A program made the position numbers and the translations under genes. Under the pieces are notes generated by a model that ran no database searches, had not been told where the DNA came from, and was given only the letters and a program-made list of their open reading frames with translations. Positions 2,613-53,089 of a stretch of DNA of 64,000 bases are shown piece by piece. The DNA lies in assembly GCF_035084215.1 (NCBI RefSeq), contig NC_090325.1:186000001-186064000 (forward strand), written 5' to 3'. The stretch comes from Heptranchias perlo (lineage: Eukaryota). The stretch's first letter is position 1. Every line of letters starts with the position of its first letter.

Positions 2613-3481
2613 AAGCTTTTGATTTTATTTTGCAGCATAAATCCAGCGAAATATAACTCTCCCCAGCCCCAGCCATCATCATGGCAAACCTCTTGTGTTT
2701 TATCGTAAAGGAGAGAGCCTGAGGCTCCCTCAGTAAAACAGCAACAAAATCCTGTACTTCCTCACACTTGCTGTAACGGCTCACAGAGAAGTGAATTATC
2801 GGTTGCCTGTGTGTGAAAGCTCTTTATTTTAATGGTCTATTAGCAAATAAGTTAAAAATGGTCAAAATAAAATCCCAAGCTTGTTTTTATTTTGATTTTA
2901 AAAAGAAAAAAAATCACATTTGACCTCTGTGAGGAGTAGACTCTGCTGTTGTCCTGCACACAGCTATTCCTTCCGTACTGGAATCCCCCGTACTGTGACG
3001 GAAATTCATATAAATTAGGCAATGGTTATTAGTTCAGCGGTGCGTGGAGAATAAGTTGCAAAGAACAAGAGCAACCGTTGCCCTGAGCCACTGGGGAACA
3101 CAATACATCAAAGTCCACGCCTCCTACGCAGGTCTCAAAATAGAATGCATTTTATAATCTTTGGTAGCTCCCCTGGGCCCACTGCCCATCAGAAAGCAAC
3201 AAAGCATCACATGCAGAATACGATTTTAACAGCGATCGCTGACAAAGCGGGTTTGAAATAGCACTTCATTATCACAGCTCCCAATTTTTCTTATCACATT
3301 TGTTGGAACTAAATTGTTCATGCGCAGTGTTACATTCTACCATTGCTCCTCTTCTCTGAACCATATGTTACAAAACAAAAAATAAAATGCCGATGGTTTG
3401 TTTCATATGAAGCATTGCAATTTGTATGACCATGCTGAAATGCACACAAGGCACAGTTTGCACTAAATGTTGAGTTGTTAA

Positions 3482-23237: not shown

Positions 23238-23942
23238 GGGCCGGAATTTCCTGGCTCGCTCTTCCGCTGAAATTAGGTCGAGATTTACACCCGTTTTTAC
23301 ACCGATCTTGCTCGTGGCGACTTGCACCCAAATTTCCTGAGAATCTTACTGGCATACGCCGGAACGTAATAAAATCAACGAAAAACAAGTGGAAATCAGC
23401 TGAACAACTGGGACCAAGGAAAGGATGGAACATACGACAGCTTTATCTTTACCTTAGTGATGTTATGAAAATTGAAGTCTGAAGCCATCAAACCATCTTT
23501 AAGCAAGACATGTTTAAGAAAATATAATTGCGGAAGCTTTTCTCTCTGTATTGTAAAAATTCCGTTGCCATAAAAAGCATTCAGAGATGTACAAAATACA
23601 ATGCAGGTCTCAGTAAGGAGAAAAAAAAATTGCTTAAAAAAAACTATTAAAAAAATCAGAAATACTGACTTTGGGTCCTGCTGCGCTTAAAACTGGCGTA
23701 AATGCAGGAAACTCGCGTTCTCTGGTCATTTGCATGGGACGGGGCTATGTTACTGAGCTAAACGGAGTTATGGCGGACTTAATTCGGGAGCAGTGCAAAT
23801 GATGGAGGAAATTTGCGTGTAGCAATGTTTCGCCATCAAACCGACGTAAATCAGTTATGTGTGAATTTCCTCAGGGTAAAAAATTGAGCAACTCCACTCT
23901 GACACCATAGTTATGCCAAAATCTGCCAGGAAATGCCAGGCC
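23238..23942. mobile_element. ~700-bp non-autonomous DNA transposon (MITE)
   Basis: Left end gggccggaatttcctggc matches the reverse complement of the right end, ggcctggcatttcctggc, at 15/18 positions. The interior is CpG-rich. Confidence 0.5.
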
Positions 23943-24975
23943 AATGGCGTCATGTGAACAACAGCAAGAGAAGGTTTAGTCTTGCCCTTCAAGGTAACCC
24001 TTGGTTATATTTTCCAGAAATAGCATAGTCTTCAATTTTTAAACAGGGCAAAGTGAACAAATGGTGTTATGTGGGCGGCAGCTGATTAAAGCTGCAACAT
24101 GGCAAAGTAAATGCTACGTTATTTATTAAGACATAGTACTACACTCAGCAGAGCATGGTGCACTTTAGAGATTTGGGCCATATCTTCTTGGTGTCACCTG
24201 GGTCAGTATTGAAGCTAAGGGCGGGCTGAGCACTGTACCACTGGAAGCTATTTGCCAACTTGCAATCAGAAACTAGCACCAATGCAAAAATATCTCTTTG
24301 TTCTGTTGTGTAAAGCTTTGCTGCGTATTCATGGAATCTGCAGTTCTGTAGTTCGTTCAGAGCACATTACAGGTGAATTAATGAAAACTATCCCAGGTTA
24401 TTAGAGTTTATTCCCTTTAACCTGATCAAGAGATTTATGGCGAGGAGTCTGCAAGGATTCCCCCCTCATTGTGGTTTAATCCTCATTAGCCAGGGTTCTA
24501 TGCACCAGTTTGAAGGGGATAGTTATAAGTCAATGCTAGATGCACGTCTACATGTACACCAATGGAATTCGGCAGTACGTTAAATGTCCAGTCTTGTTAA
24601 TGAACCTTTCAGAGTCACGCGAATCACCCCATATTTCACTCAAGTCTTTATGAGTTATTAATCTATGAGTTGTTGGAATTTAATCACTGAGCAATGTCTT
24701 ACAAAGACAATGGTGCCCAATTTAAGTTAAGTGCAAATTGTTTGCAGTATAATTAATAATTTGCCAGCTGGGCTCTGGTGGCATTGCTCACTGTGAGTCA
24801 TTGTTTCACGATAATTGGGACATTATCAACAAAGTGTGATGCTTACAGGAAGTGCATGCTACCTAATAGATTTTTAATTTTTATAGATCATAATTCAACC
24901 TTCATGATACGACAAAGCTGCTACGGACATATTTGTTCTAAGAGGTCCTGAGTTTAATAGGTCAACATATCTGTA

Positions 24976-25295
24976 TGTGTACATGTAGACGTGCATCTAG
25001 CATTGTCTCTGACACCATAGTTATGCCAAAATCTGCCAGGAAATGCCAGGCCAATGGCGTCATGTGAACAACAGCAAGAGAAGGTTTACATATCTGTATC
25101 TGTACATGTAGACGTGCATCTAGCATTGTCTTATAACTATCCCCTTCAAACTGGTGCATAGAACCCTGGCTAATGAGGATTAAACCACAATGAGGGGGGA
25201 ATCCTTGCAGACTCCTCGCCATAAATCTCTTGATCAGGTTAAAGGGAATAAACTCTAATAACCTGGGATAGTTTTCATACAGATAGGTCAACATA
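24976..25295. repeat. Templated patchwork at the 5' junction of the Penelope-like element
   Basis: 24977-25005 = revcomp of 24531-24559; 25007-25088 = exact copy of 23897-23978; 25088-25098 = 24965-24975; 25101-25278 = revcomp of 24381-24558 (1 mismatch); 25278-25285 = revcomp of 24968-24975; 25283-25295 = 24957-24969. Confidence 0.95.
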
Positions 25296-26232
25296 CCGCA
25301 AGCCCACGGACAACCTCACGATGCTCCACTTTTCCAGCTTCCACCCTAACCACGTCAAAGAGGCCATCCCCTATGGACAGGCCCTGCGAATACACAGGGT
25401 CTGCTCAGACGAGGAGGAACGCGATGGACACCTACAGACGCTGAAAGACGCCCTAGTAAGAACGGGATATGACGCTCGACTCATCGATCGACAGTTCCGA
25501 CGGGCCACAGCAAAAAATCGCATAGACCTCCTCAGGAGACTAACACGGGACGCAACCAACAGAGTACCCTTTGTCGTCCAGTACTTCCCCGGAGCGGAGA
25601 AACTACGCCATGTTCTCCGCAGCCTTCAACATGTCATCAATGAGGACAAACACCTCGCTATGGCCATCCCCACACCTCCACTACTCGCCTTTAAACAGCC
25701 ACCCATCCTCAAACAGACCATCGTTCGCAGCAAATTACCTAGCTTTCAAGAGAACAGCGTCCACGACACCACACAACCCTGCCACGGTAACCTCTGCAAG
25801 ACATGCCAGATCATCGACACAGATACCACCATCACACGAGAGGACACCACCCACCAGGTGCATGGTTCATACTCCTGTGACTCGGCCAACGTTGTCTACC
25901 TCATACGTTGCAGGAAAGGATGCCCCAGAGCATGGTACATTGGCGAGACCATGCAGACGCTGCGACAACGGATGAACGGACACCGTACAACAATCGCCAA
26001 ACAGGAGGGTTCCCTCCCAGTCGGGGAACACTTCAGCAGTCATGGACATTCATCCACCGACCTTCGGGTAAGCGTTCTCCAAGGCGGCCTTCGAGACACA
26101 CGACAACGCAAAATCGTCGAGCAGAAATTGATAGCCAAGTTCCGCACCCATGAGGACGGCCTCAACCGGGATCTTGGGTTCATGTCACGCTACACGTTAC
26201 CCCACCAGCGAACAAATGTTATCTGTTTTTAA
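25294..26232 (+). CDS. Partial Penelope-like ORF: RT thumb, Cys-rich linker and GIY-YIG endonuclease
   Basis: Uninterrupted frame from tac at 25294 (9 codons before the annotated ATG at 25321) to the stop. Contains IPYGQALRIHRVCS, linker PCHGNLCKTC, and GIY-YIG NVVYLIRCRKGCPRAWYIGET...RQRMNGH...E...GLN. Confidence 0.92.
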   Translation, partial: YRKPTDNLTMLHFSSFHPNHVKEAIPYGQALRIHRVCSDEEERDGHLQTLKDALVRTGYDARLIDRQFRRATAKNRIDLLRRLTRDATNRVPFVVQYFPGAEKLRHVLRSLQHVINEDKHLAMAIPTPPLLAFKQPPILKQTIVRSKLPSFQENSVHDTTQPCHGNLCKTCQIIDTDTTITREDTTHQVHGSYSCDSANVVYLIRCRKGCPRAWYIGETMQTLRQRMNGHRTTIAKQEGSLPVGEHFSSHGHSSTDLRVSVLQGGLRDTRQRKIVEQKLIAKFRTHEDGLNRDLGFMSRYTLPHQRTNVICF

Positions 26233-26449
26233 TATAACGGGTCAGTTGCTGTCTTTTCTATGTTTCTACCTCTCTATCTCTGTTTTTTTTTGTTTGTTGT
26301 TTTTTTTTTGGTGATTTGTATATTCTGTGAGACCTGGCAGGTAACACCTGTCTGTCTGCACACTGATTGCCTTGGCAACGGGCAGTTGAAAAAACTGTCT
26401 GTACTCAATTATAAATGCGATTTCATTTCGAGGATTTCATTTCACATCG

Positions 26450-26488
26450 TTCACCTGACGAAGGGGGAAGCCTCCGAAAGCTTGTGAA
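26450..26488 (+). ncRNA. Minimal type I hammerhead ribozyme
   Basis: ttcac (stem I), CTGACGA core, a, ggggg/aag/cctcc (stem II with one G-U pair), GAAA, palindromic stem III inside AAGCTT, NUH triplet CTT, then gtgaa (stem I'). Confidence 0.88.
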
Positions 26489-26493
26489 TTTAA

Positions 26494-26499
26494 AATAAA
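26494..26499 (+). promoter_or_regulatory. Polyadenylation signal in the element's pseudo-LTR
   Basis: AATAAA 5 nt downstream of the hammerhead. Confidence 0.55.
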
Positions 26500-26769
26500 A
26501 TTGCTGGACTATAACTTGGTGTTGTAAAATTGTTTACAATTGTCAACCCCAGTCCATCACCGGCATCTCCACATCATATCTGTAATGAATGATGGCCAGC
26601 TAATTGTTGGAAGGGTACTCTGAGGCATTGAGTATCATCTACCTTAATTGTTCTTCTAGAGCTACTGAGATTACCTTTTGTTCCAGAACCATCTCAGCCT
26701 TCTGTGAGTAAGCTGATGAGCTTAATATTCAGTTGTGTTATTTGTGAAGTCTCATGTTATAGTAGAAGC

Positions 26770-51543: not shown

Positions 51544-52014
51544 GACAGGTACACACAATCTGATGCGTTTTCCAAGCAACAATGTCTGGATATATTTATT
51601 AATGCCAACATTTATCCATTTGAATTGCTTCTGTGTTTTCAACTGGGAGCAATCCTTCACCCAAGGCATAACCCAAGACATACAACCAATCCCACTTATT
51701 CTGAAGTTTGAATAAAATGGGCAGCGCACGGTGGCAATAAAGAAGCTGCATTGAATTCAATTCTGGGGCTACGATCTCTCGGTTGCCCACAGGAAAAGCC
51801 ACTCTTTTTGACTCAGCAGGTGTTGGCATCACCATGGCCAGATGCCAGCTTGCCCACCATGCGGTTGCTGACTAGGGATCTCAGGCCCTCGGGATGAAAT
51901 CAGGAAGTTTAGTGAACTGCACAAAGGTACAGTCAACAGTAAAGAAAGAAAAGAGACAGCAGCAATGGGCACCAAGCGAGCAGCAGGGGGCAATGGGATT
52001 AGGGAAGGGAGAGA

Positions 52015-52600
52015 GAGCAGTACTGGGCACCAGGATTGGGCAGGGGGAGAGTGCAGCAGTAGTGGGCACCAGGATTGGGCAGGAGGAGAGTGCAGCAATA
52101 GTGGGTACCAGGATTGGGCAGGAGGAGAGTGCAGCAGTAGTGGGCACCAGGATTGGGCAGGGGAGAGGGACAGCAGCAGTGGGCACCAGGATTGGGCAGG
52201 GGAGAGGGACAGCAGTAGTGGGCACCAGGATTGGGCAGGGGAGAGGGACAGCAGCAGTGGGCACCAGGATTGGGCAGGGGAAAAGGAGAGCAGCAGTGGG
52301 CACCAGGATTGGGCAGGAGGAGAGTGCAGCAATAGTGGACACCTGGATTGAGCAGGGGAGATGGAGAGCAGTAGTGGGCACCAGGATTGGGCAGGGGAGA
52401 GGGAGAGCAGCAGTGGGCACCAGGATTGGGCAGGGGAGAGGGAGAGCAGCAGTGGGCACCAGGATTGGGCAGGGGAGAGGGAGAGCAGCAGTGGGCACCA
52501 GGATTGGGCAGGGGAGAGGGAGAGCAGCAGTGGGCACCAGGATTGGGCAGGGGAGAGGGAGAGCAGCAGTGGACACCAGGATTGGGCAGGAAGAGAGTTC
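52015..52600 (+). repeat. 39-bp minisatellite, 15 units
   Basis: The anchor gggcaccaggattgggcag recurs every 39 bp from 52025 to 52571. Confidence 0.95.
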
Positions 52601-53089
52601 AGCACTCTCTTGCATCTGGAGTTGAAAAGATGAAGAGTAGCAGTGGAAGCCAGGGCTTAGGAGGGAGCAGAGGTGGCCATTCGGATGGAACTGTAGGTCC
52701 TTCTTTTTCTTCAGAGCTGGATCTCCCTTCTGCCTCACTTTAATCACCAGAGCTCCACAAGATATACTTTATTTGGACTTACAGAATGCTTTGAACAAAT
52801 ATCACAGGAAAGACTTTGAATCAAACAATAATCTAATTGAGGAGCGAATGCATCTAATCAACTGATGAGAGCGAAGCCTGAGCAGTTAATATAACCTAGG
52901 CTTGAATTTCCAAGGTCACGCTGCAGATTTCAGCTCACTCCCTGCCCATTGCTGCTTCTGGGCAATCAACGTGGCAACATTCACTTGTACGTTCTATTCT
53001 ATTTTTGAGTTTGGTTTGCTGTCCTTCATGCACATTATCCATAAAAGGAAAATAGTGCTTGAAACCAGCAAAAAATGGGTTTCTCCGTC

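What the first reader, a model, noticed from the sequence alone, without database searches (positions are those of the whole stretch)
24957..25300. Six-segment templated patchwork at the Penelope 5' junction, repeatedly returning to the target site
Seen: about 320 bp of almost entirely locally copied DNA lies between the left target copy (catatctgta, 24966-24975) and the first element base (25294). In order: 29 bp inverted from 24531-24559; 82 bp exact and direct from 23897-23978 (1.1 kb upstream); the target sequence again; 178 bp inverted from 24381-24558; 8 bp of inverted target; 13 bp of left flank (ataggtcaacata); then the ORF, joined through a 2-bp 'ta' overlap. Most joins share 1-4 nt of microhomology, and both inverted tracts start at the same tgtaca site, which matches the target's terminal tgta. 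Known: 5' junctions of non-LTR elements can carry templated inserts from RT template jumping or polymerase-theta end joining. Inference: this is an unusually complete record of repeated prime, copy and release cycles during Penelope integration, reaching more than 1 kb into the flank.
Basis: partly seen in the sequence, partly recalled or inferred. Interest (0 to 1): 0.8.

Follow-up and report, generated by a model that had tools for sequence, protein, structure and literature searches.

The report
Flank-copied patchwork at Penelope insertion
When a jumping gene was pasted in here, 318 bases of nearby DNA were copied back and forth into the joint, an unusually elaborate example of a repair scar already known from other retrotransposons.

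Summary
The patchwork is real. Between the left target copy (24966-24975) and the first base of a 5'-truncated Penelope-like element (25294) lie 318 bp, 316 of them copied from local DNA up to 1.1 kb away. Contig breakpoints in public reads fall where most of these duplications predict, and show no empty allele. Corrections: the first inverted tract is 32 bp, not 29. Both inverted tracts share one difference from the assembled template, and the reads suggest the template carried that letter. Target plus first tract is a 44-bp repeat (43/44), so the two inverted tracts may be one snap-back copied twice. The join out of the long inverted tract fits a 7-nt homology with the right half of the target. 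Among 148 other copies, 6 carry flank-derived junction inserts (11-207 bp, templates up to 2 kb away) and 1 carries 455 bp from another contig; none is this complex. Best reading: repeated microhomology-primed copying during 5' end joining, by host repair synthesis (0.55) or the element's reverse transcriptase (0.3). Known for L1, L2 and R2; I found no report of it for Penelope-like elements. New member of a known kind.

The parts
23897..23978 (+). Template of the 82-bp direct segment, 1.1 kb upstream
   Evidence: 100% identical to 25007-25088
24381..24559 (+). Template of both inverted tracts (24528-24559 and 24381-24558); starts with a 7-mer at 24379-24385 that also lies at 26583-26589
   Evidence: no other close copy in the genome; read contigs imply the junction copies' letter at 24530
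24957..24969 (+). Left flank and start of target; template of the last segment
24966..24975 (+). Left target-site copy (10 bp, 3 of which overlap the element's 3' end in the right copy)
   Evidence: equals 26575-26584
24977..25008 (-). Segment 1: 32-bp inverted copy of 24528-24559, preceded by one extra base at 24976
   Evidence: a read contig runs through this join up to 25006
25007..25088 (+). Segment 2: 82-bp direct copy of 23897-23978, 2-nt overlap with segment 1
   Evidence: a read contig starts at 23949 as the duplication predicts
25088..25099 (+). Segment 3: 12-bp return to the target (24965-24976); start of a 44-bp repeat of 24965-25008
25101..25278 (-). Segment 4: 178-bp inverted copy of 24381-24558, preceded by one extra base at 25100
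25273..25285 (-). Segment 5: inverted target (8 bp exact, 25278-25285); with one base missing it extends into the right flank
25283..25295 (+). Segment 6: 13-bp direct copy of 24957-24969; 3-nt overlap with segment 5 and 2-nt overlap with the element
25294..26577 (+). 5'-truncated Penelope-like element, 1284 bp; frame open from 25294 to 26232 (312 aa), then the 3' pseudo-LTR with its tail
   Evidence: closest sampled copies 97.5-98.5% identical
26575..26584 (+). Right target-site copy

Best explanation
The element's endonuclease cut the target with a stagger, probably about 12 bp as is usual in this family, and reverse transcription from the right end stopped at 25294. The 5' joint was then closed by host repair synthesis, in several abortive rounds primed by 1-7 nt of microhomology. 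One consistent path, all inferred: the left 3' end, trimmed to TGTA, folded back on a complementary 4-mer 410 bp upstream and copied 178 bp. The cDNA end copied 13 bp of left flank, folded back on its own target strand and so gained a 7-nt end complementary to the end of the 178-bp arm. It annealed there, copied the arm and the target, jumped 1.1 kb upstream for 82 bp, and re-entered the arm 32 bp from its start, where the joint was sealed. Shown: the segments, their templates, the overlaps, the position inside the target duplication. Inferred: timing, order, direction and enzyme.
For: Patchwork bounded by the target duplication and containing target copies. Copies are exact if the template carried the junction letter at 24530, as the read contig ends imply (0 differences in 292 bp), so the event is young, like the element with its open frame. 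Irregularities sit only at joins, as reported for templated inserts (PMC5068794 passages). The 7-mer shared by the template end and the right half of the target occurs 20 times on the window's two strands, about 1.6e-4 per position. Family target duplications peak at 12 bp (22 of 57), so the overhang probably included it. Other copies carry flank-derived inserts: L051, L059, L074, L047, L093 (5 of 84) and L151 (1 of 64). Flank-templated extra nucleotides are ascribed to an annealing-based host pathway for zebrafish LINEs (PMC4245944 results; PMC4760211 passages).
Against: Tracts of 82 and 178 bp, apparently error-free and primed 0.4-1.1 kb away, do not look like typical Pol theta inserts, which in worms are mostly under 25 bp, about 85% primed within 10 bp, with about 1 error in 30 bp; a more accurate polymerase or the reverse transcriptase is needed for them. 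The 7-nt match needs one lost base and was noticed after the fact. L125 captured 455 bp from another contig, which template jumping explains as easily. No empty allele. The background scan found many local exact repeats away from junctions, many of them clustered in repeat-rich loci, so it gave no clean enrichment figure.
Confidence: 0.55

Rival explanations
1. The element's own reverse transcriptase made the patchwork by serial template jumps from the truncated cDNA end and from the second nicked strand, onto flanking DNA or a nascent transcript of the locus.
For: A Penelope-clade protein nicks and extends both strands in vitro (PMC11167929 main text). R2 proteins jump templates and cDNA ends snap back (PMC11371274 passages). 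Inserts in L051, L059 and L074 sit at the centre of the inversion, where two cDNA ends meet. L125 holds 455 bp from another contig between target copy and element. The tracts are long and accurate.
Against: No test here of DNA-templated jumping by this protein. Most copies close cleanly (30 of 32 inverted-type copies have an adjacent target duplication). No host exon was found to show that the locus is transcribed (100 of 208 open frames scanned, no hit above a Pfam cut-off). A LINE study found that the frequency of extra nucleotides changes with the host cell type.
Confidence: 0.3
2. Part or all of the patchwork comes from a separate break at this site, before or after integration (for example 24976-25088 pre-existing, with the copy at 25089-25098 as the true left target copy).
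For: There are two full upstream target copies, so the left boundary is formally ambiguous. No empty allele was seen. Local exact repeats occur away from elements.
Against: The last three segments abut the element and reuse target sequence from both sides of the cut. All copies look equally fresh. Similar inserts sit precisely inside target duplications of other copies.
Confidence: 0.11
3. Assembly artefact.
For: No listed read contig spans the whole junction. A contig break predicted at 24381-24410 was not seen, depth over 25124-25221 is only 3.6-3.8, and the right flank is almost uncovered. The runs may come from the assembled individual.
Against: In 2 of 2 runs of that sample, contigs start or end at 23949, 24557, 24530/1 and 25006, the positions predicted by the duplications. 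One contig runs from the flank through the target into segment 1. Depth is about double over 25026-25123 (30 and 23 against 13-14) and raised on the contig that holds the long template (15.8 and 16.1 against 13.2 and 13.7; 16.6 and 17.2 expected if doubled).
Confidence: 0.04

Closest known systems
5' extra nucleotides templated from flanking DNA at zebrafish LINE inserts (ZfL2-2, ZfL2-1, Nimb-2; PMC4245944, parts 2-3 of 5 read; PMC4760211, passages)
   Same: Flank-derived extra sequence at the 5' joint of a truncated retroelement, with short overlaps, inside a target duplication.
   Different: Here a GIY-YIG-type Penelope-like element. The passages read give no case of this length or reach; the original 2012 analysis they cite was not read.
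Templated insertions at somatic L1 insertions (bioRxiv 10.1101/2024.08.27.596794, passages: 22 instances, 3,598 insertions in the figure; PMC11702581, passages: 3 cases)
   Same: Local genomic DNA copied into the insertion during integration.
   Different: Those templates are typically under 250 bp and within 15 bp of the site; here 0.4-1.1 kb, and up to 2 kb in L074. Supplementary figures that show those cases could not be seen.
Pol theta templated inserts and synthesis-dependent MMEJ (PMC5068794, PMC5728401; passages)
   Same: Priming on 1-4 nt, snap-back giving inverted copies, reiterated rounds from one flank, new microhomology made by synthesis, errors at switch points.
   Different: Tracts here are longer, more accurate and more distant than reported there.
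Snap-back and extra-template 5' junctions of R2 protein insertions (PMC11371274, passages)
   Same: The cDNA 3' end primes further synthesis on itself or on nearby target DNA before joining.
   Different: Engineered, site-specific system; no multi-segment flank patchwork in the passages read.
Penelope-like elements with inverted pseudo-LTR and tail (PMC3846280, PMC8557442, passages; PMC11167929, parts 1-2 of 4)
   Same: Single RT plus C-terminal endonuclease frame, tandem units, inverted 5' pseudo-LTR lacking a 30-40 nt tail, short target duplications.
   Different: The window's copy has no inverted pseudo-LTR. These papers mention microhomology joins, palindromes and captured host spacers, but the passages read do not describe inserts copied from the insertion's own flank.

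Membership tests
Penelope-like elements (endonuclease-bearing) | Single frame with reverse transcriptase | tested here: met
   Full-length copy in L095: 902 aa, Pfam RVT_1 E=3.3e-10; window copy aligns to it at 92%
Penelope-like elements (endonuclease-bearing) | C-terminal GIY-YIG endonuclease | tested here: inconclusive
   No Pfam GIY-YIG hit and only weak PHROGs endonuclease hits (E 0.06 and 0.15); Atlas neighbours at 0.97 carry GIY-YIG on 22-35% of members; motif-like residues seen by eye
Penelope-like elements (endonuclease-bearing) | Tandem units with pseudo-LTR running into the frame's start | tested here: met
   3086-bp tandem unit in L095 and a similar one in L040
Penelope-like elements (endonuclease-bearing) | Inverted 5' pseudo-LTR lacking a 30-40 nt tail | tested here: met
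   An inverted piece in 54 of 82 loci, mostly starting at unit position about 3047-3055 of 3086; 32 of 64 in the second set; absent from the window's own copy
Penelope-like elements (endonuclease-bearing) | Hammerhead ribozyme in the pseudo-LTR | tested here: inconclusive
   No Rfam match; fold no better than shuffles, z=-0.13; a core-like motif near 26455-26482 by eye, from a recalled consensus
Neptune or Nematis clade | CX2-5CxxC linker between RT and endonuclease | tested here: met
   CX4CxxC in the window's frame; criterion from PMC8557442 passages
Neptune or Nematis clade | Placement by RT phylogeny | not tested
   No tree built
Flank-templated 5' extra nucleotides of non-LTR insertions | Extra sequence between left target copy and element, copied from local DNA with short overlaps | tested here: met
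   316 of 318 bp templated; 5 of 7 joins overlap by 1-3 nt
Flank-templated 5' extra nucleotides of non-LTR insertions | Absent from the empty site | not testable with these tools
   No relatives held; no empty allele in 2 runs of one sample
Pol theta-mediated end joining scar | Short, error-prone inserts primed next to the break | tested here: not met
   82 and 178 bp, 0.4-1.1 kb away, no internal errors if the read allele is the template, against under 25 bp, 10 bp and 1 in 30; the short segments 3, 5 and 6 do fit
Pol theta-mediated end joining scar | Genetic dependence on POLQ | not testable with these tools
   Needs an experiment

The most novel reading that the evidence does not exclude
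This Penelope-like reverse transcriptase itself makes serial, accurate jumps onto DNA or nascent RNA 0.3-2 kb from the cut, and onto other chromosomes, with a polarity rule: copies without an inversion take from the upstream flank (window, L047, L093, L151: 4 of 4), and inversion centres take direct copies of the downstream flank (L051, L059, L074: 3 of 3). With about 28,000 young ends in one genome, the family would be a steady source of local duplications and a record of the unresolved second-strand step.
Probability: 0.2. Interest if true: 0.62.

Novelty: new member of a known kind. Interest (0 to 1): 0.32.

Why it matters
How the second end of a Penelope-like insertion is joined has not been validated experimentally (PMC11167929). 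This junction, and six or seven smaller ones, show that the step can copy flanking DNA from kilobases away. One locus is an anecdote with no sign of function. The testable part is at family level: tens of thousands of young copies allow the frequency, reach and left/right polarity of the inserts to be measured against CR1 and L2 in the same genome, which would separate element-encoded from host-encoded synthesis.

Tried and rejected
A DNA search with the element's 5' part found nothing because common words are skipped; a 3' pattern gave 28,449 matches. Pfam and solved-structure searches of the window's 312-aa piece gave no useful hit. Rfam and folding did not support a ribozyme. Spacers in L011, L046 and L077 were not found in 8 kb of right flank (best 9-10 nt). 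Rejected as flank inserts: L083, L102, L117, L133 (other repeats, 96-99.5% like copies in other loci), L126 (253-bp inverted pair outside the target duplication), L164 (minisatellite), L007 and L008 (inside dispersed repeats, ambiguous). A background scan for exact local repeats of 30 bp or more in 698 kb of non-element sequence returned many hits away from junctions and was not a clean control. No host exon by Pfam in 100 of 208 frames. Earlier findings: none for this place or for the full word set.

Full report
Observation. The region 24976-25293 (318 bp) separates the left target copy (24966-24975, equal to 26575-26584) from the first element base. Exact-match tiling and repeat finding give six segments: 24977-25008 inverted from 24528-24559; 25007-25088 direct from 23897-23978; 25088-25099 direct from 24965-24976; 25101-25278 inverted from 24381-24558; 25278-25285 inverted target; 25283-25295 direct from 24957-24969. 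Only 24976 and 25100 have no template. Overlaps at the seven joins are 0 (one extra base), 2, 1, 0 (one extra base), 1, 3 and 2 nt. The element start at 25294 is confirmed by loose ends in all four runs laid and by a full-length copy. The 178-bp and 82-bp pairs are the only dispersed pairs of 50 bp or more at 99% or better in the window, and 24300-24980 has no other close copy in the 3.25-Gb genome, so the templates are local.

(1) Both inverted tracts differ from the assembled template at the same site, 24530. (2) 24965-25008 recurs at 25088-25131 with one mismatch, including the base after the target. One snap-back product copied twice therefore explains why both tracts start at one site; two independent primings at that site remain possible. 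(3) The template of the long tract begins with a 7-mer (24379-24385) that also lies at 26583-26589, across the end of the right target copy. It occurs 20 times on the window's two strands. The junction fits annealing through it with one base lost. This was noticed after the fact.

Read evidence. Four of seven listed runs, all from one sample, hold 0.91 of the sampled words; they may be the assembled individual. Two were laid. Both have a 609-bp contig at 23949-24557 with one other letter and a 477-bp contig aligned at 24531-25006. A k-mer simulation predicts starts and ends at 23949, 24557, 24530 and 25006 if the duplications exist and the template carries the junction copies' letter; with the assembled letter it predicts 24500-25007 instead, and an empty allele would break the contig at 24975. 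So the reads support the join into segment 1, the 82-bp duplication and the shared start of the inverted tracts, show no empty allele, and imply that the copies are exact (292 bp). Against: a predicted break at 24381-24410 was not seen (graph cleaning beside a repeat of million-fold summed depth is my untested explanation); depth on that contig is 15.8 and 16.1, between single (13.2, 13.7) and doubled (16.6, 17.2); no listed piece spans the later joins; the right flank is almost uncovered; most pieces are not shown.

The element. It is the last 1284 bp of a 3086-bp tandem unit with a 902-aa frame and an RVT_1 domain. Pfam did not report GIY-YIG; Atlas neighbours carry it on 22-35% of members. 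A CX4CxxC linker points to Neptune or Nematis by the criterion in PMC8557442 (passages); no tree was built. Its 31-nt 3' end has 28,449 exact matches and a subfamily marker 3,491.

Family survey. Set 1: of the first 100 listed matches, 90 loci were oriented and 6 tandem or run-off loci dropped, leaving 84; 68 have a target duplication and 16 do not, 3 of those in tandem-repeat flanks. Lengths peak at 12 bp (22 of 57 clean cases, range 8-16). Flank-derived inserts: L051, 126-130 bp direct from 330 bp downstream (99-100%; best other locus 86%) plus small inverted pieces; L059, 203-207 bp from 0.9-1.1 kb downstream (97%; other loci reach 95% over 181 bp, so probable only); L074, 37 bp exact from 1.97 kb downstream; L047, two rounds of left flank plus target; L093, an 11-bp snap-back. 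Set 2: 100 listed matches gave 71 regions, 64 of which were fetched. 30 of 32 inverted-type and 10 of 32 truncated copies have an adjacent target duplication. An alignment scan for flank copies of 16 bp or more near element edges returned five loci, none of which I counted. By eye, L151 has two short returns to the left flank. L125 has 455 bp between target copy and element that match another contig at 97.8%, with no element there. In all, 6 of 148 local and 1 of 148 distant; these are lower bounds, since flanks were 1.3-4 kb and short inserts are under-detected. None has more than one distant template. The window's copy was picked for being striking, so it is the tail of the distribution. Both sets come from one contig. 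The background control was noisy, and CR1/L2 junctions were not tabulated.

Mechanism. Shown: segments, templates, overlaps, position inside the duplication. Inferred: a staggered cut of about 12 bp, truncated cDNA, then rounds of microhomology-primed copying. A path in which the left end snaps back once and the cDNA end then copies flank, its own target strand, the snap-back arm, a distant flank piece and the arm again accounts for every segment, the 44-bp repeat and the 7-nt homology. Synthesis wholly from the left end, with both strands or a sister chromatid as template, cannot be excluded. The short segments resemble Pol theta and SD-MMEJ products (PMC5068794, PMC5728401; passages). The long ones are too long, distant and accurate for the worm figures and suggest strand-invasion synthesis or the reverse transcriptase. 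Odds: host repair 0.55, reverse transcriptase 0.30, separate event 0.11, artefact 0.04.

Comparison and novelty. Flank-templated 5' extra nucleotides are reported for zebrafish LINEs (PMC4245944, parts 2-3 of 5; PMC4760211, passages), for L1 (bioRxiv 10.1101/2024.08.27.596794 and PMC11702581, passages) and, as snap-backs, for R2 (PMC11371274, passages). PMC12016303 (passages) gave nothing relevant. For Penelope-like elements, four searches and passages of PMC3846280, PMC8557442 and PMC11167929 (parts 1-2 of 4) showed no report of inserts copied from the insertion's own flank; the library lacks most subscription journals, and preprint supplements were closed. Verdict: real, a new member of a known kind, extreme in complexity and reach, with one bolder lead (the left/right polarity, 7 cases, seen after the fact). 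Interest 0.32.

Noticed in passing
window 25294-26042, runs X6 and X7: Two other organisms hold single contigs of this element at about 99% identity (8 differences in 749 bp; 5 in 706 bp) at depth 59 and 23, against about a million summed in organism A. Recent horizontal transfer, close kinship or cross-contamination.
   Followed up: no
L125:2685-3134 and L179 (G000 C5): 455 bp from another contig, 97.8% identical, captured between a 12-bp target copy and a truncated element; the source has no element beside it.
   Followed up: partly
family-wide: Many copies stop 120-140 nt from the 3' end, next to a hammerhead-like motif seen by eye; this may mark a self-cleaved RNA 5' end. Rfam and folding gave no support.
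   Followed up: partly
set 2, L111-L177: Inverted-type copies nearly always keep an adjacent target duplication (30 of 32); truncated copies often do not (10 of 32), which suggests two ways of closing the 5' end.
   Followed up: partly
L111, L114, L126, L139, L156, L159, L168, L174, L177: Copies that end at unit position about 3047-3053, without the tail and without an inverted partner: priming at the second start site alone.
   Followed up: no
window 24530: The assembled base differs from both junction copies and, by contig ends, from the reads: a later substitution, a heterozygous site or a consensus error.
   Followed up: partly
window 26594-26760: The right flank is almost uncovered by contigs of the two same-sample runs; the tool's filter may have removed them.
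   Followed up: no
L126:151-403 and 1860-2111: 253-bp inverted pair at 97%, unique among the loci, ending 30 bp before the element but outside its target duplication.
   Followed up: no
L119 and L120: Two loci 12 kb apart with near-identical element pieces and flanks: a local duplication.
   Followed up: no
window 51978-52604 and 48281-48805: Two tandem-repeat arrays.
   Followed up: no
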